From the UHGV virus genome UHGV-1964375: 12,612 nucleotides of DNA; one strand, given 5' to 3'. A program made the translations under genes and the position numbers. The DNA is from a virus. This document shows, piece by piece, positions 4,200 through 11,692 of this stretch; positions within the stretch are counted from its first letter, which is position 1, and the number at the start of each line of letters is the position of its first letter. Below the pieces are notes generated by a model. That model did not search any database. It worked only from the letters and a program-made list of their open reading frames with translations, and was not told the origin of the DNA.

Positions 4200-4346
4200 A
4201 TGACAAAACAACTCAGTCCTTACCAGGACAAAATTCACAAACACATACTACGTGATCGCTTCCTGTCCAGCTTCAAGCAGCCTGGTCGATTCCGGGCTGA
4301 GTTGGAAAAAGTGAAGCTGATGCAGAAGGAGAAAGGTCATGAGTAA
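4200..4346 (+). CDS. possible 48-aa ORF between cII and O
   Basis: My own translation: [53 protein letters not shown] is 5 nt before the ATG. The 3' end overlaps the O start by 8 nt. Confidence 0.3.
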
Positions 4347-5199
4347 TCTTGCAACCGTAACACATTTAAGGCCTTCACAACGGCCTGTGGAGCGTCGTGT
4401 GGCAGAAGTTGAAGATGGTTATACCCGTCTTGCAAATGCCCTGTATGAAGAGCTTATCGGCGCAGATTTAACGAAAAATCAGAGCAAGGTTGCCCACGCC
4501 ATATGCCGTAAAACATACGGCTACGGTAAAAAGATGGATCGCATCTCTGATAGTCAGTTAGCTCAAATTACCAGGCTGCCAAGACAGAAGGTAAACAAGG
4601 CCAAGAATGAGCTTATCGCGATGAAGGTTATCCTTCGCGAAGGCCAGCAAATCGGGCCTAACAAGAACATCGAGGAATGGCAAATCGAAGGGTGTCACTA
4701 CTCTGGTGATAATGTCACTGCATTGGTGACAAAAAGTGTCACCAAAACGGTGACAGCGCTGTCACCAAAACAGGGACACACAAAAGAAACTATTACAAAA
4801 GAAAAAAGAAATAATAAAAACACTATGTCCGAAAGTGTTCGGACGGAGTGTGAAAAATCACCTGACCGTCACGAAGAAACCGACAAGGCATTCGAGGAAA
4901 TATTCTGGTGTGCAGGCATGCGGAAAGCCGGGAAGAAAAACGCAGCTTCGGCATTCAGAACACAGTTCAGGGAATGGCGTAAAACTACCAAGGGTACCGC
5001 AAGCGAGTTTGCCACGATGCTGGCAGAAGACATCGCATGCAGGAATGGTAAGCAGTTCGGATTCGACAGGTTGTTACCATCGAGCTACCTGAACGGTCAA
5101 CGCTGGAACGACGAGAAGCCAGAAACTATTCAACCACAATCCAAACCATCATCCGCAATCACCGTATCGAAAACTGGCTACGTGTTTTTCGACAGGTGA
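4339..5199 (+). CDS. O: replication initiator, lambda O-like N-terminal domain (286 aa)
   Basis: [56 protein letters not shown] parallels the lambda O N-terminus. Iteron-like palindromes and an AT-rich tract lie inside the gene, as for ori-lambda. The C-terminal half is unlike lambda O. Confidence 0.85.
4684..4812. repeat. putative replication origin: iteron-like palindromes plus AT-rich tract inside the O gene
   Basis: Repeated TGTCAC...GGTGA units at 4684..4700 and 4704..4721, then palindromes GGTGACA-aaaag-TGTCACC (4716..4734) and GGTGACA-gcgc-TGTCACC (4740..4757), followed by an A-rich 40-bp tract at 4771..4812. Confidence 0.6.
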
Positions 5200-5306: not shown

Positions 5307-5801
5307 ATGATGAGCCTTGAAGTTGGAGAATATATACCTGGTTATGAGGGTAAATACTCTGTAACCAAAGACGGTCGTGTTTATTCACATTTAAGAGGCA
5401 GGTTTTTGAATCCATCTCCGGATAACAAGGGTTATCTAAGAGTCACTTTGTGTTCCGATGGGATTCAGAAGACGTTAAAAGTTCATCGTCTTGTAGCTCA
5501 ATTATTTATCCCAAATCCGTATTGCAAGCCAGAAGTAAATCATATCAACGGCGACAAATCGGATAACGCCATTTGGAACTTGGAATGGTGTACCTGCTCA
5601 GAGAATTTAAAACATGCTTTTAGCATCGGACTGAAAAGCGCAAAGGGAGTTTTTAATGGTAGGGCAAAACTATCTGAAACTGATGTGATTGATATCAGGA
5701 ATTCTGTTGGTATGAAACTAAGCGAACTATCCACTAAATACGGAGTGAGTGAAATGCAAATTTCCACAATCCGCAGAGGAAACGCATGGAGGCACCTTTG
5801 A
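5307..5801 (+). CDS. HNH homing endonuclease (164 aa), apparently intact
   Basis: N-terminal YEGKYSVTKDGRVYS motif (NUMOD4-like) and HRLVAQLFIPNP...VNHINGDKSDNAIWNLEWCTCSENLKHA (HNH). GAGGGA SD upstream. Lies between O and the helicase gene. Confidence 0.85.
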   Translation: MMSLEVGEYIPGYEGKYSVTKDGRVYSHLRGRFLNPSPDNKGYLRVTLCSDGIQKTLKVHRLVAQLFIPNPYCKPEVNHINGDKSDNAIWNLEWCTCSENLKHAFSIGLKSAKGVFNGRAKLSETDVIDIRNSVGMKLSELSTKYGVSEMQISTIRRGNAWRHL

Positions 5802-7678
5802 GTCCATCAGAACTTAGCGACCTGCTTTGGGCGCAGGTTGACAGGGTGGCTCCGCACCTGTTGCCAAACGGCAAGAAAGAGGGGCATGAGTGGGTTGCCG
5901 GTAACGTCAACGGTGACAAGGGAAACAGCCTTAAGGTCAACCTTAGCGGCAAGAAAAAATGGGCTGATTTCGCTGAGGGAGACGGCGGTGACATGCTTGA
6001 TTTGTGGATGGCATGTCGTGGAATTAACCTGCATCAGGCTATGCAGGAAGCGAAAGCATTTCTCGGTATCAAGGATGACGATCACCATTTCGATGCCAAA
6101 CGTGAGAAAAAATTCTCCAGACCTGATCGCAAGAAAATCGCCCGCTACGTTACCAGAACAGAATCCCATCTTGAGTACCTGCAATCGCGTGGCATATCGC
6201 CAGAAGTCGTAAAGCGCTACGAGGTTGTCAGCGGCAAGGTGTGGAATGGAGAGCGAGAACTGGATGCTCTGGTGCTTCCGTACAAACGCGATGGTGAGTT
6301 GTTGCAGGTCAAGCGAATCAGCACTGAGCGCCCGGACGGGAAGAAAGTCATTATGGCAGAAGGTGATTGCGAACCTTGTCTGTTCGGATGGCAGGCTCTG
6401 GACGCTGGCGTAAGGGCGGTTGTACTTTGCGAAGGCGAAATTGATTGTATGAGCTATGCGCAATACGGCATCTCGGCGTTATCCGTGCCGTTTGGTGGCG
6501 GGAAAGGCGCTAAGCAACAGTGGATTGAGTTTGAGTATCACAACCTCGACAGGTTTGAGGAAATATTCATCTCGATGGACGTTGATGATGTTGGTCGTGA
6601 AGCCGCAAGGGAAATCGCAAGCCGACTCGGTGAACATCGTTGCCGTCTTGTTACTCTGCCGTACAAAGACATCAACGAATGCCTGATGAACGGTGTTACC
6701 GAGGATGAAATCTGGCAGTACATCGGCACGGCATCCTACTTCGATCCTGAAGAACTCTACAGCGCGCGAGAGTTTTACCAGGACACTATCAACGCTTTCT
6801 ACGGCAAGCAGCAGTATCTGTTTAATCCACCGTGGGAATCTCTGGCAGATAAATTCCAGTTCCGTGAGGCCGAGTTGACGCTGGTCAATGGTGTGAACGG
6901 TCACGGAAAAACGGAGGTTGTCGGGCATATGGCACTTGAGGCAATGCGTCAGGGTGTGAAGACGTGCATCGCGTCACTTGAGCTGAAGCCAGGCATTCTC
7001 CTTAAGCGACTTACCCGTCAGGCGACGTGCTGCAAGATGCCGCCAGTGCTGGAAATTGACTCTGCATTTAAATTTTATGACGAAAGACTTTGGGTGTTTG
7101 GCCTGACCGGAACGGCGAAAGCCGACAGGCTGATCGAAATATTCGACTACGCTCGCCGCCGATACGGGATCCAGTTATTCATCATCGACAGCCTGATGAA
7201 ATGCGGCATAGGTGACGATGACTATAACGGGCAGAAAGCATTTGTTGACTCGATTTGTGACTTCAAAAACAAAACAAACTCCCACGTCATTCTCGTTACT
7301 CACTCCAGAAAAGGAGACAGCGAAGAAAAACCAACCGGGAAAATGGACGTAAAAGGCTCTGGAGCGATAACAGACCTGACAGACAACCTTTTTATCATCT
7401 GGCGTAACAAGGCTCGCGAGAGAGCGTTACAGAGAGTTCAGAGTGGTGAAAAGATGTCAGAGAAGGACGAACAGCTACTGGCATCTCCGGCATCTGTTTT
7501 GATGCTTGAAAAACAACGTAACGGCGAAGGTTGGGAAGGTGGTGTCCCGTTGTTCCTTGACGAGCAATCGCACCAGTTCCTGCAACTTGAATCAGGATCG
7601 CCATATAGCTACATCGCCAATATGCCGAAATCGGAATATGACGAGGCGTGGCGACAGGAAAACGTGACGGAGTATTAA
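5786..7678 (+). CDS. bifunctional DNA primase/helicase (Toprim domain plus DnaB/SF4-like ATPase), 630 aa
   Basis: Toprim motifs VVLCEGEIDCMSYA and ISMDVDDVGREAA. Walker A NGVNGHGKTE and Walker B LFIIDSLMK. The start overlaps the HNH gene by 16 nt. Confidence 0.85.
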   Translation: MEAPLSPSELSDLLWAQVDRVAPHLLPNGKKEGHEWVAGNVNGDKGNSLKVNLSGKKKWADFAEGDGGDMLDLWMACRGINLHQAMQEAKAFLGIKDDDHHFDAKREKKFSRPDRKKIARYVTRTESHLEYLQSRGISPEVVKRYEVVSGKVWNGERELDALVLPYKRDGELLQVKRISTERPDGKKVIMAEGDCEPCLFGWQALDAGVRAVVLCEGEIDCMSYAQYGISALSVPFGGGKGAKQQWIEFEYHNLDRFEEIFISMDVDDVGREAAREIASRLGEHRCRLVTLPYKDINECLMNGVTEDEIWQYIGTASYFDPEELYSAREFYQDTINAFYGKQQYLFNPPWESLADKFQFREAELTLVNGVNGHGKTEVVGHMALEAMRQGVKTCIASLELKPGILLKRLTRQATCCKMPPVLEIDSAFKFYDERLWVFGLTGTAKADRLIEIFDYARRRYGIQLFIIDSLMKCGIGDDDYNGQKAFVDSICDFKNKTNSHVILVTHSRKGDSEEKPTGKMDVKGSGAITDLTDNLFIIWRNKARERALQRVQSGEKMSEKDEQLLASPASVLMLEKQRNGEGWEGGVPLFLDEQSHQFLQLESGSPYSYIANMPKSEYDEAWRQENVTEY

Positions 7679-7707: not shown

Positions 7708-7739
7708 AGGCCTGCTGGTAATCGCAGGCCTTTTTATTT
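7708..7739 (+). terminator. intrinsic terminator between the replication and nin modules (tR2-like)
   Basis: AGGCCTGC-TGGTAATC-GCAGGCCT followed by TTTTTATTT, 30 bp after the helicase stop and before ninB. Confidence 0.6.
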
Positions 7740-7755
7740 GGGGGAGAGGGAAGTC

Positions 7756-8196
7756 ATGAAAAAACTAACCTTTGAAATTCGATCTCCTGCACATCAGCAA
7801 AACGCTATTCACGCAGTACAGCAAATTCTTCCAGACCCAACCAAACCAATCGTAGTAACCATTCAGGAACGCAACCGCAGCTTAGACCAAAACAGGAAGC
7901 TATGGGCCTGCTTAGGTGACGTCTCTCGTCAGGTTGAATGGCATGGTCGCTGGCTGGATGCAGAAAGCTGGAAGTGTGTGTTTACCGCAGCATTAAAGCA
8001 GCAGGACGTTGTTCCTAACCTTGCCGGGAATGGTTTTGTGGTAATAGGCCAGTCAACCAGCAGGATGCGTGTAAGCGAATTTGCGGAGTTATTAGAGCTT
8101 ATACAGGCATTCGGTACAGAGCGTGGCGTTAAGTGGTCAGACGAAGCGCGACTGGCTCTGGAGTGGAAAGCGCGATGGGGAGACCGGGCAGCATGA
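7756..8196 (+). CDS. ninB: NinB (146 aa)
   Basis: [66 protein letters not shown]... matches lambda NinB as I recall it. Internal start of ORF 7738..8196. Confidence 0.9.
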
Positions 8197-8366: not shown

Positions 8367-8509
8367 TCTGTGAAAACTGCAAATACCTTCCAACGAAACG
8401 CTCCAGAAATAAACGCAAGCCAATCCCAAAAGAATCTGACGTAAAAACCTTCAACTACACGGCTCACCTGTGGGATATCCGGTGGCTAAGACATCGTGCG
8501 AGGAAATGA
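8333..8509 (+). CDS. ninE: NinE (58 aa; GTG start)
   Basis: My own translation: (V/M)[65 protein letters not shown] is 4 nt before the GTG. There is no in-frame ATG upstream before a stop. Confidence 0.7.
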
Positions 8510-8913
8510 CAATGCTTTTAATTCAACCTGGATTTGGCCTTAGCATCAAAAAAGGCCACATGTTTGGCGAGAAAGAGTCTCAACGAAAAATGGTGCTTAT
8601 CAAGTTGCCATTTATCAGTATTTGTTGGCTAAACAGGGAGGCCGCAAATTATTTGTCTACATGCGCCAGAGCAGCATTTAACGACCCTGAGTGGTTTGTA
8701 GAAAACCATCACGCTGTTCGTCAGGCAAAGAGAAAGGCCAAAACGACATACATGAAGGCGTATCGAAAAGCATGGAAAGAACACCGCGATCGATACCAAC
8801 AAGACATGGAAAAGCTTGAATCAGAAAACATGGAATTAAGACGAAAGCTCGGTGAAACAAAACGAGACATTGATGCTTACAAGCGACTTTTTAATGGTGA
8901 AAGCCATGCTTAG
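8506..8913 (+). CDS. hypothetical nin-region protein (135 aa) with a basic, coiled-coil-like C-terminus
   Basis: Internal Met of ORF 8470..8913; the ATG overlaps the ninE stop (ATGA). Not a lambda nin protein that I recognise. Confidence 0.55.
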
Positions 8914-9091
8914 CCCATCCCAATCCCTTCAATACCAGAAAGAAAGCGTCGAGCGGGCTTTAACGTGCGCTAACTGCGGTCAGAAGCTGCATGTGCTGGA
9001 AGTTCACGTGTGTGAGCGTTGTATATATGAATGCTTAAATATGGTGGAACATAATGAGAAATATAAGCAACATAGACGAATTAAGAAATAA
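8906..9091 (+). CDS. ninF: NinF-like protein with insertion-derived C-terminus (disrupted ninF, 5' part)
   Basis: [39 protein letters not shown] matches the lambda NinF N-terminus as I recall it, then diverges (IYECLNMVEHNEKYKQHRRIKK) where the HNH gene is inserted. Confidence 0.6.
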   Translation: MLSPSQSLQYQKESVERALTCANCGQKLHVLEVHVCERCIYECLNMVEHNEKYKQHRRIKK

Positions 9092-9561
9092 ATTATCATA
9101 TGATGATGTTTTAGGTGTACTTAGATGGAAAGTGTCTCCTTCTAATAATGTTAAGGTTTGCAGTGTTGCTGGTTACATTAGGAGTGATGGTTATAGGATG
9201 TTAACTATCGATGGTGTAATTACTTATGCTCACCACGTTATATGGATGATAAATAATGGTGAGATTCCATTAGGGTATAAAATTGATCATATAAATGGAG
9301 TAAGGGTCAGATAATAGGCTATCTAATCTTCGATTGGTTACACACCAACAGAATGCACAGAACCAAAAGAGAAAAATAACCAATTCGTCAGGAGTGACTG
9401 GAGTATATTTCAATAAAGAGAGATGTAAGTGGATTGCGAATATATGCGTAGATGGGCGCACCAAATATCTTGGAATATTTGCTAGCATCATTGACGCTAT
9501 TGCAGAAAGGAAGAGGGCAGAAAAAGAACTGGGTTTTCATGAAAACCATGGTAGACCATAA
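9054..9561 (+). pseudogene. HNH homing endonuclease (HNH plus AP2-like DNA-binding domain) inserted in ninF; reading frame broken by a +1 shift near 9303..9306
   Basis: Frame A reads ...YAHHVIWMINNGEIPLGYKIDHINGVRVR then stop. The +1 frame from 9304 reads GSDNRLSNLRLVTHQQNAQNQKRK...SGVTGVYFNKERCKWIANICVDGRTKYLGIFASIIDAIAERKRAEKELGF. Removing one G from the GGG run would restore HINGVRSDNRLSNLR. Confidence 0.7.
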
Positions 9562-9562
9562 C

Positions 9563-9622
9563 TGCGCAGAACTGATGAGCGATCCGAATAGCTCGATGCA
9601 CGAGGAAGAAGACGATGGCTAA
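9563..9622 (+). pseudogene. ninF: ninF 3' remnant ([19 protein letters not shown])
   Basis: In frame with the ninF 5' part across a 540-bp insertion (9023..9562). Matches the C-terminus of lambda NinF as I recall it. Its stop overlaps the ninG start. Confidence 0.5.
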
Positions 9623-10226
9623 ACCAGCGCGAAGACGATGTAAAAACGATGAATGTCGGGAATGGTTTCACCCTGCATTCGCCAATCAGTGGTGGTGCTC
9701 TCCAGAGTGTGGAACCAAGATAGCACTCGAACGACGAAGCAAAGAACGCGAAAAAGCGGAAAAGGCAGCAGAGAAGAAACGACGACGAGAGGAGCAGAAA
9801 CAGAAAGATAAACTTAAGATTCGAAAACTCGCCTTAAAGCCCCGCAGTTACTGGATTAAACAAGCCCAACAAGCCGTAAACGCCTTCATCAGAGAAAGAG
9901 ACCGCGACTTACCATGTATCTCGTGCGGAACGCTCACGTCTGCTCAGTGGGATGCCGGACATTACCGGACAACTGCTGCGGCACCTCAACTCCGATTTGA
10001 TGAACGCAATATTCACAAGCAATGCGTGGTGTGCAACCAGCACAAAAGCGGAAATCTCGTTCCGTATCGCGTCGAACTGATTAATCGCATCGGGCAGGAA
10101 GCAGTAGACGAAATCGAATCAAACCATAACCGCCATCGCTGGACTGTCGAAGAGTGCAAGGCGATCAAGGCAGAGTACCAACAGAAACTCAAAGACCTGC
10201 GAAATAGCAGAAGTGAGGCCGCATGA
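9615..10226 (+). CDS. ninG: NinG / Rap recombination protein (203 aa)
   Basis: [41 protein letters not shown]... with Cys-rich motifs, matching lambda NinG as I recall it. Confidence 0.9.
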
Positions 10227-10429: not shown

Positions 10430-11072
10430 TGGCAGCAAATACCGAAATATTTGGGTAGTTGGCGATCTGCACGGATGCTACACGAACCTGATGAAAAAAC
10501 TGGAGACGATAGGATTCGACACCAAAAAAGACCTTCTTATCTCGGTTGGCGATTTGGTCGATCGCGGTACAGAGAACGTTGAATGCCTGGAATTAATCAC
10601 ATTCCCCTGGTTCAGAGCTGTACGTGGAAACCATGAGCAAATGATGATTGATGGCTTATCAGAGCGTGGAAACGTTAATCACTGGCTGCTTAATGGCGGT
10701 GGCTGGTTCTTTAATCTCGATTACGACAAAGAAATTCTGGCTAAAGCTCTTGCCCATAAAGCAGATGAACTTCCGTTAATCATCGAACTGGTGAGTAAAG
10801 GAAAAAAATATGTCATCTGCCACGCCGATTATCCTTGTGATAAATACGAGTTTGGAAAGCCAGTTGATCATCAGCAGGTAATCTGGAACCGCGAACGAAT
10901 CAGCAACTCACAAGACGGGATCGTGAAAGAAATCAAAGGCGCGGACACGTTCATCTTTGGTCATACGCCAGCAGTGAAACCACTCAAATTTGCCAACCAG
11001 ATGTATATCGATACTGGCGCAGTGTTCTGCGGAAACCTCACATTGATTCAGGTACAGGGAGAAGGCGCATGA
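10407..11072 (+). CDS. ninI: NinI serine/threonine protein phosphatase (221 aa; lambda PPase family)
   Basis: [29 protein letters not shown]...GDLVDRG...RGNHE metallophosphatase motifs. Internal start of ORF 10332..11072. Confidence 0.9.
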
Positions 11073-11692
11073 GACTCGAAAGCGTAGCTAAATTTCATTC
11101 GCCAAAAAGCCCGATGATGAGCGACTCACCACGGGCTACGGCTTCTGACTCTCTTTCCGGTACTGATGTGATGGCTGCTATGGGGATGGCGCAATCACAA
11201 GCCGGATTCGGAATGGCTGCATTCTGCGGTAAGCACGAACTCAGCCAGAACGACAAACAAAAGGCTATCAACTATCTGATGCAATTTGCACACAAGGTAT
11301 CGGGGAAATACCGTGGTGTGGCAAAGCTTGAAGGAAATACTAAGGCAAAGGTACTGCAAGTGCTCGCAACATTCGCTTATGCGGATTATTGCCGTAGTGC
11401 AGCGACGCCGGGCGCAAGATGCAGGGATTGCCACGGTACAGGTCGGGCGGTTGATATTGCCAAAACAGAGCAGTGGGGGAGAGTTGTCGAGAAAGAGTGC
11501 GGAAGATGCAAAGGTGTCGGCTATTCAAGAATGCCAGCAAGCGCCGCATATCGCGCTGTAACGATGCTAATCCCAAACCTTACTCAACCCACCTGGTCAC
11601 GCACTGTTAAGCCGCTGTATGACGCTCTGGTGGTGCAATGCCACAAGGAAGAGTCAATTGCAGACAACATTTTGAACGCGGTCACACGTTAG
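11069..11692 (+). CDS. Q: late-gene antiterminator Q (207 aa)
   Basis: [48 protein letters not shown]... is essentially lambda Q over its full length. Confidence 0.95.
11356..11369 (-). promoter_or_regulatory. paQ-like CII binding site (TTGC-N6-TTGC) antisense within Q
   Basis: The plus strand reads GCAAGTGCTCGCAA, so the minus strand reads TTGCGAGCACTTGC. Lambda has the CII-dependent antisense promoter paQ at a comparable position. Confidence 0.45.

What the first reader, a model, noticed from the sequence alone, without database searches (positions are those of the whole stretch)
8906..9622. HNH homing endonuclease inserted in-frame into ninF, and itself frameshifted
The first 39 codons of ninF (to ...HVCERC) and its last 19 codons ([19 protein letters not shown]) are in the same frame but separated by 540 bp (9023..9562). 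The insert carries an HNH/AP2-type endonuclease gene. That gene is broken by a +1 shift at a GGG run (9304..9306): frame A ends HINGVRVR-stop, while the +1 frame continues GSDNRLSNLRLVTHQQNAQ... A single-G deletion would give the canonical HINGVRSDNRLSNLR motif. This looks like a recent homing event followed by decay, or possibly a homopolymer sequencing error.
Basis: seen in the sequence. Interest (0 to 1): 0.6.

Follow-up and report, generated by a model that had tools for sequence, protein, structure and literature searches.

The report
Frameshifted homing endonuclease splitting phage ninF
A common selfish DNA-cutting gene (an HNH-AP2 homing endonuclease) sits inside the small, non-essential lambdoid phage gene ninF, and this copy alone carries one extra G that breaks it, which is either a very recent mutation or a sequencing error; this is an ordinary finding.

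Summary
ninF (8906-9622) is split after codon 39 by an AT-rich insert (9023-9562). The insert carries an HNH_3 plus AP2-fold endonuclease gene, and that gene is broken by a +1 shift at GGG 9304-9306.

Three points of the interpretation need correcting.

1. The same element, with identical junctions, occurs in 45 complete E. coli genomes, 29 IMG/VR loci and about 500 contigs. It is intact (168 aa) in all 30 complete copies I translated, and all 46 E. coli copies have GG at the shift site. Its flanks are very diverse, and pN/pS is about 0.16. A copy 84% identical in protein sits at the same position of a diverged ninF. So this is an old, actively maintained ninF-specific homing endonuclease lineage, not a recent event in this contig.

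2. The element is 539 bp everywhere else. The "in-frame" 540 bp is produced by the extra G.

3. Three substitutions left of the insert (CAC TGC to CGT TGT) occur only in occupied alleles.

The extra G is private to this 12,612-bp JGI contig. The insert has no other private change, and the alignable rest of the contig has no other private indel. A genuine fresh mutation and a homopolymer error therefore cannot be separated without reads. A group I intron, an intein and an evolved frameshift site are rejected.

The parts
8906..9022 (+). 5' part of ninF. It has 39 codons and retains both CxxC pairs. Bases 9018 (G), 9019 (T) and 9022 (T) differ from every empty allele, which reads CAC TGC.
   Evidence: The Pfam NinF model (25 positions) is fully matched at 6.4e-12. 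None of 121 empty IMG/VR alleles has CGT TGT, and an exact-pattern scan for an empty CGTTGT allele found nothing.
8906..9091 (+). ninF' as it would be translated in this allele: 61 aa, made of the NinF zinc-ribbon core plus a new tail, IYECLNMVEHNEKYKQHRRIKK, read from the leader of the insert.
   Evidence: This exact 61-aa product is on 498 contigs and is named NinF by NCBI. The tail is not conserved in the diverged copy L157, where it reads IYVLLNAGDDHEDNN.
9023..9562 (+). The inserted element. It is 540 bp here and 539 bp in all other copies. It has 33-35% GC, against 42-50% in the flanks.
   Evidence: The junctions GAGCGTTGT|ATATATG and CCATAAC|TG[C/T]GCAG are identical in the 30 other loci examined.
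9043..9048 (+). Shine-Dalgarno-like GGTGGA, 5 nt before the endonuclease ATG at 9054.
   Evidence: Read directly from the sequence. L157 has AGGAG at the equivalent place. This is an inference.
9054..9314 (+). Endonuclease frame A. It gives 86 aa: the N-terminal beta-rich domain and the first strand of the HNH motif up to D78-H79, ending ..HINGVRVR-stop.
   Evidence: This exact 86-aa product exists once among about 15 billion proteins, on a JGI/IMG contig of 12,612 bp.
9304..9306 (+). GGG run holding the private extra G. All other copies have GG.
   Evidence: The GGG 33-mer was not found in viral contigs or metagenome contigs.
9307..9561 (+). Endonuclease +1 frame, residues S85 to P168 plus the stop. 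It holds the rest of the HNH motif (N87, N91, N100/N103) and the AP2-fold DNA-binding domain.
   Evidence: -: this is the +1 reading frame, and Pfam AP2 scores only weakly on the 75-aa piece (E 0.0096).
- the conserved residues in the alignment of homologues.
- 29 of 45 homologues hit Pfam AP2.
- the AlphaFold2 model has pLDDT 90.5, and its C-terminal domain superposes on plant AP2/ERF domains.
9563..9622 (+). 3' remnant of ninF: 19 codons plus the stop. It still carries the ninG ribosome-binding region, and its stop overlaps the ninG start.
9615..10226 (+). ninG (203 aa), intact, immediately downstream. This is context, not part of the element.
   Evidence: Pfam NinG at 1.1e-91.

Best explanation
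The window is the early-right (immunity, replication, nin, Q) region of a lambdoid phage or prophage. Its ninF gene is occupied by a free-standing homing endonuclease gene (HEG) of the HNH_3 + AP2 class.

**Inferred mechanism, from the known biology of free-standing phage HEGs**
1. The gene is transcribed with the nin operon and translated from its own ribosome-binding site.
2. The AP2-fold domain and the N-terminal domain recognise the conserved, uninterrupted ninF sequence around ...GTGTGTGAGCACTGC|TGCGCAGAACTG... in another lambdoid genome in the same cell.
3. The HNH site nicks or cuts that sequence.
4. Recombinational repair copies the 539-bp element from the occupied allele.
5. The carrier is immune because its own site is split and also carries three substitutions (CAC TGC to CGT TGT).

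**Effect on the host gene**
The insertion is tolerated because ninF is dispensable. In addition, the 5' fragment keeps the whole zinc-ribbon core.

**This copy**
In this contig one extra G (GG to GGG, 9304-9306) separates the catalytic histidine from the rest of the HNH motif and from the DNA-binding domain. As written, this copy is dead. I lean slightly towards a genuine, very recent inactivating mutation, the first step of the usual HEG decay cycle, rather than an error. The margin is small.

**Shown and inferred**
- Shown: the anatomy, the family, the presence/absence polymorphism, the selection on the ORF, and the fact that the extra G is private.
- Inferred: cleavage, target identity, immunity, and whether the G is real.
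For: **Family**
- Pfam HNH_3 at 1.2e-19 and PHROG 99 'HNH endonuclease' at 2.3e-68.
- The AlphaFold2 model has pLDDT 90.5. Its best PDB match is the homing endonuclease I-HmuI (1u3e, E 6.4e-4), and its C-terminal domain superposes on AP2/ERF domains at rmsd 1.2-3.2 A.
- 29 of 45 homologues hit Pfam AP2.
- D78, N91 and N103 are invariant, and H79, N87 and N100 nearly so.

**Mobility signature**
- 45 complete E. coli genomes carry the element, against 1446 with an uninterrupted ninF.
- 29 IMG/VR loci carry it, against at least 120 empty ones.
- The junctions are invariant, yet there are 19 distinct left flanks, 17 distinct right flanks, both ninF N-terminal types and at least 6 different downstream genes.
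- GC falls to 33-35% in the insert.

**Function maintained**
- All 30 complete copies I translated encode 168 aa (27 IMG/VR loci and three RefSeq loci from the two E. coli prophages B7A and WP9).
- There are 13 synonymous and 8 non-synonymous variable sites on 105 and 399 sites respectively, P = 3e-5 to 5e-5.

**Immunity substitutions**
- They are found only in occupied alleles.

**Old association**
- L157 is 84% identical in protein, sits at the same position in a diverged ninF-like gene, and has GG at the shift site.

**Genuine decay is plausible**
- Other copies are broken in other ways: an IS1 end inside the gene in L032, and truncated or frameshifted products P0075, P0078, P0076 and P0010.
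- The contig shows no other private 1-bp indel inside well-aligned blocks, about 10 kb at 98-99.5% identity.

**Precedent**
- A frameshifted HNH/AP2 HEG split into two ORFs has been described in phage ICP1 (PMC10448857).
Against:
- The diverse flanks could also arise from ordinary lambdoid mosaic recombination in the conserved ninF sequence, without any endonuclease activity.
- The extra G lies in a homopolymer, is seen in one contig only, and is the only private change in the insert. That is exactly what an error would look like.
- Pfam AP2 is below threshold for this protein itself (16.6 bits against 33.3).
Confidence: 0.5

Rival explanations
1. This rival accepts the same element and the same mechanism. 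It holds that the extra G is a sequencing or assembly error at a short homopolymer, so the real phage carries an intact 168-aa endonuclease and a 539-bp insert.
For: - Every one of the other copies has GG: 46 places in E. coli, 27 complete IMG/VR loci and the diverged L157.
- The insert has no other private change.
- The flanks are 100% identical to L004, L006 and L007 for -1000 to +1500 bp.
- The repaired protein is an exact sequence known from 47 contigs.
- The ORF is otherwise under purifying selection.
- The GGG variant was found nowhere else.
Against: - A run of only 2-3 G is a weak error hotspot.
- About 10 kb of the same contig aligns to close relatives without another private indel, so the contig is not error-prone overall.
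- Genuinely decayed copies of this HEG exist elsewhere.
Confidence: 0.43
2. The GGG is genuine and the gene is still expressed at a low level by +1 ribosomal frameshifting. The peptidyl-tRNA-Arg would slip from AGG to GGG, with the GGAG two nucleotides upstream acting like the prfB Shine-Dalgarno stimulator. A variant of this idea is that the two halves act separately, for example an AP2-only DNA-binding protein.
For: - The sequence GGAGUA AGG GUC allows AGG-to-GGG re-pairing. This rests on reading the sequence and on my own knowledge of prfB and of frameshifting at rare AGG codons.
- A +1 slip there gives exactly the canonical HINGVRSDNRLSNLR sequence.
Against: - The site is not conserved as a shift site. 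All homologues, down to 37% identity, are single-frame.
- The 0-frame A-site codon GUC is neither a stop nor a hungry codon.
- The downstream 75-aa ORF starts at a TTG with no evident ribosome-binding site.
Confidence: 0.03
3. The insert is a self-splicing group I intron or an intein that restores an intact NinF after splicing, so ninF is not really disrupted.
For: In this window the two ninF parts are in the same frame and would join to a perfect NinF.
Against: - There is no Rfam match at E <= 1 in 8700-9800.
- Only 31 nt upstream and 1 nt downstream of the 507-nt ORF are non-coding, which leaves no room for a ribozyme core.
- The ninF frame meets a stop at 9089-9091.
- The native element is 539 bp, so the two parts are out of frame.
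- No intein motifs were found.
Confidence: 0.01
4. The gene is not a mobile HEG at all. It is a 'moron'-type nuclease, for example one with a role in defence or in competition between phages, that entered ninF once and has since spread only by ordinary homologous recombination between lambdoid phages.
For: - The flank diversity is what lambdoid mosaicism produces anyway.
- Occupancy is low, about 3% of E. coli genomes that have ninF.
- Purifying selection shows that the protein has a function, but not which function.
Against: - The architecture, and the family's behaviour elsewhere, are those of homing endonucleases. Relatives are free-standing in T1-like Klebsiella phages, and there are relatives in 3778 phage records.
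- The same site is occupied in a diverged ninF.
- The target-adjacent substitutions are exclusive to occupied alleles.
Confidence: 0.03

Closest known systems
HNH-AP2 homing endonucleases of phages, cyanobacteria and protists (Magnani et al. 2004, as cited in PMC10448857; the 'IPA-HNH' HEGs of ICP1 in PMC10448857)
   Same: - The architecture matches: an N-terminal HNH nuclease and a C-terminal AP2-fold DNA-binding domain.
- The gene is free-standing in a phage genome.
- ICP1 even provides a precedent for a frameshift that separates the HNH and AP2 halves into two ORFs.
   Different: - This protein matches the canonical Pfam HNH_3 model strongly, whereas the ICP1 proteins do not, according to that paper.
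- This lineage sits inside a coding gene (ninF) of temperate lambdoid phages.
- No member of this lineage has been characterised biochemically.
I-HmuI (PDB 1u3e), the HNH homing endonuclease of Bacillus phage SPO1
   Same: - It is the best structural match (Foldseek E 6.4e-4).
- It is the only PDB sequence match over the HNH motif, and that match is weak (E 0.1).
- It shares the catalytic DH...N...N signature.
   Different: - I-HmuI is encoded in a group I intron and is a nicking enzyme with a different C-terminal DNA-binding module.
- Here there is no intron, and the C-terminal domain has the AP2 fold.
- Identity is only 23%.
Free-standing HEGs that split a host gene ('genes in pieces'): mobE in nrdA of Aeromonas phage Aeh1, and mobA in T4 topoisomerase gene 60/39 (PMC2988022)
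   Same: A free-standing HNH endonuclease gene has been inserted inside a coding region and divides it into two ORFs.
   Different: - Those cases split essential enzymes whose two halves reassemble.
- Here the host gene is a 58-aa non-essential protein. The 5' piece keeps the whole conserved core, and the 19-codon 3' piece has no evident translation start.
- Nothing suggests reassembly.
Seg and Mob endonucleases of T4 ('intronless homing', PMC2988022)
   Same: The proposed mechanism is the same: cleavage of the HEG-less allele, recombinational repair from the HEG+ allele, and protection of the carrier by sequence differences at the target.
   Different: - The T4 HEGs are mostly intergenic and often cut far from the insertion site.
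- Here the protective substitutions lie 1-5 nt from the insertion point.
- The cut site is unknown.

Membership tests
HNH (His-Me finger) homing endonuclease, Pfam HNH_3 class | A complete beta-beta-alpha-metal motif (DH ... N ... N/H) in one polypeptide | tested here: not met
   As written, the window splits the motif. The 86-aa frame A covers only profile positions 2-28 of 46, and N87, N91 and N100/N103 lie in the +1 frame. After removing one G the feature is met (1.2e-19; conserved residues). So the lineage is a member, while this copy as sequenced is a broken member.
HNH (His-Me finger) homing endonuclease, Pfam HNH_3 class | Fold similar to a solved HNH homing endonuclease | tested here: met
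   The AlphaFold2 model of P0001 (99% identical, 168 aa) has pLDDT 90.5. Its best PDB hit is I-HmuI, 1u3e, at E 6.4e-4 and probability 1.0.
HNH-AP2 homing endonucleases | C-terminal AP2 DNA-binding domain | tested here: met
   - By sequence the match is weak: Pfam AP2 scores 16.6 bits against a cut-off of 33.3, E 0.0096.
- 29 of 45 homologues hit AP2, best at 5e-8.
- The model's residues from about 113 to 160 superpose on the TEM1, ERF1 and WRI1 AP2 domains at rmsd 1.2-3.2 A, probability 0.99-1.0.
Mobile homing endonuclease gene (any class) | Presence/absence polymorphism at one precise site among otherwise homologous genomes | tested here: met
   - 45 complete E. coli genomes are occupied and 1446 are empty.
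- 29 IMG/VR loci are occupied and at least 120 are empty.
- The junctions are identical in all occupied loci.
Mobile homing endonuclease gene (any class) | Carrier allele lacks the intact target (self-immunity) | tested here: met
   The target sequence is split by the insert. The adjacent CAC TGC to CGT TGT change is found in 30 of 30 occupied alleles and in none of 121 empty ones. That this change confers resistance is an inference.
Mobile homing endonuclease gene (any class) | Site-specific cleavage of the empty allele, and gene conversion into it | not testable with these tools
   This needs enzyme assays and phage crosses.
Group I intron carrying an HEG | A ribozyme core (P1-P9) flanking or embedding the ORF | tested here: not met
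   There is no Rfam 15 match at E <= 1 on 8700-9800. Only 32 nt of the insert lie outside the ORF.
Intein | An uninterrupted reading frame with the host protein, plus splicing motifs | tested here: not met
   The ninF frame stops at 9089-9091. The native insert is 539 bp. Pfam found no intein domains.
Programmed +1 ribosomal frameshift (prfB-like) | A shift site and two-frame organisation conserved among homologues | tested here: not met
   All other copies and all homologues are single-frame.
NinF (Pfam PF05810) | The CxxC ... CxxC core matched by the family model | tested here: met
   The 61-aa NinF' matches all 25 model positions at 6.4e-12. An intact NinF scores 2.6e-13. Only the acidic C-terminal tail is lost.

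The most novel reading that the evidence does not exclude
The extra G is genuine and is not simply lethal to the gene. Either low-level +1 slippage at GGAGUA-AGG-G throttles the expression of a potentially toxic nuclease, or the frameshift releases an AP2-only DNA-binding protein (9334-9561). Such a protein could bind the ninF target without cutting it, which would be a first step towards domesticating a HEG DNA-binding domain, as proposed for CapR and the plant AP2 factors.
Probability: 0.03. Interest if true: 0.55.

Novelty: new member of a known kind. Interest (0 to 1): 0.2.

Why it matters
The significance is modest. The work documents a ninF-specific HNH-AP2 homing endonuclease lineage in temperate lambdoid phages of E. 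coli, E. albertii and Salmonella.

- RefSeq annotates it only generically, and sometimes wrongly as a pseudogene.
- No deposited phage record holds a copy above 60% protein identity.
- The one targeted literature search (terms 'ninF' and 'HNH') found no paper describing it.

**Possible uses**
- Lambdoid phages are genetically tractable, so this would be an easy system for measuring homing, co-conversion and HEG decay in temperate phages.
- The frameshifted copy is a ready-made natural null allele.
- The enzyme could serve as a new rare-cutting nuclease once its target is mapped.

The frameshift itself has no wider significance.

Tried and rejected
- **Group I intron.** The Rfam scan of 8700-9800 at E <= 1 found nothing.
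- **Intein or in-frame domain insertion.** Rejected because of the stop at 9089-9091 and because the native length is 539 bp.
- **Own promoter or terminator in the insert.** The consensus scan found nothing above shuffle expectation.
- **A second occurrence of the GGG variant.** I searched for one because it would have supported a real mutation. Exact 33-mer scans of viral contigs and metagenome contigs found nothing. The exact-protein look-up found only the window's own contig, and the look-up of encoding contigs had no record.
- **Empty ninF alleles already carrying CGT TGT**, which would be a resistant target without the HEG. None was found.
- **Genome-contig scan for the HEG.** It returned no confirmed locus. 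That collection holds one genome per species, so the scan says little.
- **Deposited phage genomes.** None has the insert or any protein above 60% identity.
- **Literature.** A search for 'ninF' with 'HNH' gave no relevant paper.
- **Other signs of poor sequence quality in the contig.** All other indels against close relatives lie at mosaic block edges.
Full report
**Context**

The window is the early-right arm of a lambdoid phage or prophage.
- Gene order: a LexA-type repressor, cro/cII, replication O (4339-5199), a toprim-helicase (5786-7678), ninB (7738-8196), ninD/E, a 147-aa ORF, ninF, ninG (9615-10226), ninH, the NinI phosphatase, Q (11069-11692) and the holin.
- The truncated 86-aa endonuclease product occurs exactly once among about 15 billion proteins, on a JGI/IMG contig of 12,612 bp. 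The window is therefore that whole contig.

**Check of the observation**

- ninF starts at 8906 and runs for 39 codons to ...HVCERC (TGT 9020-9022).
- Its last 19 codons, [19 protein letters not shown], lie at 9563-9619, with the stop at 9620-9622. They are in the same frame, 540 bp further on.
- Phage Sf101 has an uninterrupted, annotated 177-bp ninF. It reads GAGCACTGC|TGCGCAG where the window has GAGCGTTGT + ATATAT...CCATAAC + TGCGCAG.
- Inside the insert, ATG 9054 opens an ORF that ends ...HINGVRVR-stop at 9312-9314. The +1 frame continues SDNRLSNLRLVTHQQN... to the TAA at 9559-9561.
- Deleting one G of 9304-9306 gives a 168-aa protein that matches Pfam HNH_3 at 1.2e-19. The 86-aa piece covers only the first 27 of the 46 profile positions.

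**What the insert is**

- The repaired protein belongs to PHROG 99, 'HNH endonuclease' (2.3e-68).
- In an alignment of 45 homologues, D78, N91 and N103 are invariant and H79, N87 and N100 nearly so. This is the His-Me finger signature.
- An AlphaFold2 model of P0001 (99% identical, pLDDT 90.5) has the homing endonuclease I-HmuI as its best PDB match (E 6.4e-4). Its C-terminal three-stranded sheet plus helix superposes on plant AP2/ERF domains at rmsd 1.2-3.2 A.
- Pfam AP2 is sub-threshold on this sequence but is hit by 29 of the 45 homologues.
- The architecture is a recognised HEG class (PMC10448857).
- The element is not an intron or an intein. There is no Rfam hit, only 32 nt lie outside the ORF, and the ninF frame stops at 9089-9091.
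- GC falls to 33-35% in the insert, against 42-50% around it.

**The element in other genomes**

- The same element is present in 45 of 5426 complete E. coli genomes (47 places, all chromosomal). In the listed records it spans 539 bp at 98.9-99.6% identity.
- It is also present in 29 IMG/VR loci.
- In 27 complete IMG/VR loci and the three RefSeq loci I translated (two E. coli prophages), the ORF is intact at 168 aa. Where both junctions match exactly (all but L013), the spacing shows a 539-bp element. With a looser right-junction pattern, 29 of 29 inserts are 539 bp.
- L013 has the TGT variant of the right-flank codon.
- The 61-aa NinF' product is found on 498 contigs, including Salmonella and 'Enterobacteriaceae'. 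The exact repaired endonuclease is found on 47 contigs, and near-identical variants on about 150 more, including E. albertii.
- By contrast, 1446 complete E. coli genomes have an uninterrupted ninF, and the IMG/VR scan stopped at 120 empty loci. Occupancy is therefore only a few per cent.

**Signs of mobility and of function**

- Among 30 occupied loci there are 19 different 130-bp left flanks and 17 different 120-bp right flanks.
- Both major ninF N-terminal types are represented (MLSPSQ... and MIDPNR...), as are at least six different downstream genes. This mirrors the diversity of the empty alleles.
- The junctions never vary.
- The three substitutions just left of the insert (9018 G, 9019 T, 9022 T, making CAC TGC into CGT TGT) are in all occupied alleles and in none of 121 empty ones. 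An exact scan for an empty CGTTGT allele found nothing.
- Within the ORF there are 13 synonymous and 8 non-synonymous polymorphic sites, on 105 and 399 sites respectively. That gives pN/pS of about 0.16, P = 3e-5 to 5e-5.
- The protein is therefore kept functional. The simplest reading is an active homing endonuclease whose target is intact ninF and whose carrier allele is immune.
- Ordinary lambdoid recombination could contribute to the flank diversity, and nuclease activity itself is not shown.

**Age of the association**

- A relative 84% identical in protein and about 80% in DNA (P0002, L157) lies at exactly the same position of a diverged ninF-like gene. Its left side reads ...IHVCEKC|IY..., and its right remnant reads ...NGQMLEKDDG-stop.
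- Downstream of it is ybcO rather than ninG. It too has GG at the shift site.
- The tail that the 5' ninF fragment acquires differs between the two lineages, so it is incidental read-through of the HEG leader.
- More distant relatives (about 50% identity) are free-standing genes in T1-like Klebsiella phages.
- The HEG-ninF association is therefore old, and this is not a 'recent homing event'.

**Correction: the insertion is not in-frame**

The native element is 539 bp, so the two ninF parts are out of frame in every other copy. They are in frame here only because of the extra G.

**The frameshift**

- The extra G is private. All 46 E. coli copies align 70 of 71 nt across it. All IMG/VR copies and L157 have GG.
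- The GGG 33-mer is absent from the viral and metagenome collections.
- Apart from this G, the window's insert carries only two variants, both shared with other copies.
- The flanks are identical to L004, L006 and L007 from -1000 to +1500 bp.
- The lesion is therefore either very young or not real.
- Points in favour of a real mutation:
  - About 10 kb of the contig aligns to close relatives with no other private indel.
  - Independently broken copies exist. L032 has an IS1 end inside the gene (I recognised the IS1 end from memory). P0075 and P0078 are frameshifted products, and P0076 and P0010 have foreign C-termini.
- Points in favour of an error: the site is a homopolymer, the variant has been seen once only, and the gene is otherwise under selection.
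- I cannot separate the two and put them at roughly 50:43.
- Evolved +1 recoding is excluded because no homologue has two frames. Incidental slippage at AGG-G is conceivable, but there is no evidence for it.

**Consequence for the host genes**

- NinF' keeps the entire 25-position Pfam core (6.4e-12, against 2.6e-13 for intact NinF). It exchanges the acidic tail for a basic one.
- The ninG start and its upstream GAGGA are untouched.
- ninF lies in the dispensable nin region. This rests on my own knowledge of the lambda nin5 deletion.

**Verdict**

This is a correctly spotted but ordinary feature: a member of a well-known class of selfish genes, at a site that RefSeq already annotates generically, carrying a single private indel of undeterminable authenticity. 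Its main value is as a tractable homing system in a temperate phage.

Noticed in passing
window 5307-5801 (+): There is a second, intact free-standing homing endonuclease gene: 164 aa, Pfam NUMOD4 1.6e-10 plus HNH_3 2.3e-9, PHROG 59. It lies between the O-like replication gene and the toprim-helicase gene. The three closest prophages (L003, L004, L005) lack it. Only 5 of the 292 complete E. coli genomes that match this 701-bp query cover at least 80% of it, and those 5 carry the gene (annotated as a NUMOD4 HNH endonuclease). None of the 5 appears among the ninF-HEG carriers that were listed.
   Followed up: partly
L029 3561-4070; L075 7734-; L089 (- strand) 510-; L017 1540-: A third HNH endonuclease gene (169 aa, MSDVKEKDIPGFEGIYKV..., motif EVNHKDGNKLNNKVENLEW) sits immediately downstream of ninF in some lambdoid phages, next to both occupied and empty ninF alleles. 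In L017 it is reduced to 59 aa. The nin region looks like a hotspot for homing endonuclease genes.
   Followed up: partly
L032 1-200: One IMG/VR copy of the ninF endonuclease gene is interrupted at about codon 27 by sequence ending ...CAATAAGTTGGAGTCATTACC. I recognise this as an IS1 terminal repeat, from memory and without a tool test. It would be an independent inactivation of the same gene.
   Followed up: no
protein P0077 (NCBI EFO3049240.1, 178 aa): This is a chimeric endonuclease. Its first ~88 residues are nearly identical to the ninF HEG up to HINGVRSDNR. From there a different C-terminal half follows (PENLRECLPIENSRN...). This suggests recombination between paralogous HEGs exactly at the conserved HNH motif.
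   Followed up: no
L003 11090-11239 (E. coli B7A, NZ_CP035812.1): RefSeq annotates the endonuclease in B7A as an incomplete pseudogene. The ORF is nevertheless an intact 168 aa that matches the population consensus (it has Gly36 where this window has Cys). This is an annotation artefact and not decay.
   Followed up: yes
window 8470-8913 (+): A 147-aa ORF of unknown function (PHROG 1511, 1.1e-81) takes the place of ninX upstream of ninF in this mosaic, and it overlaps the ninF start by 8 nt.
   Followed up: no
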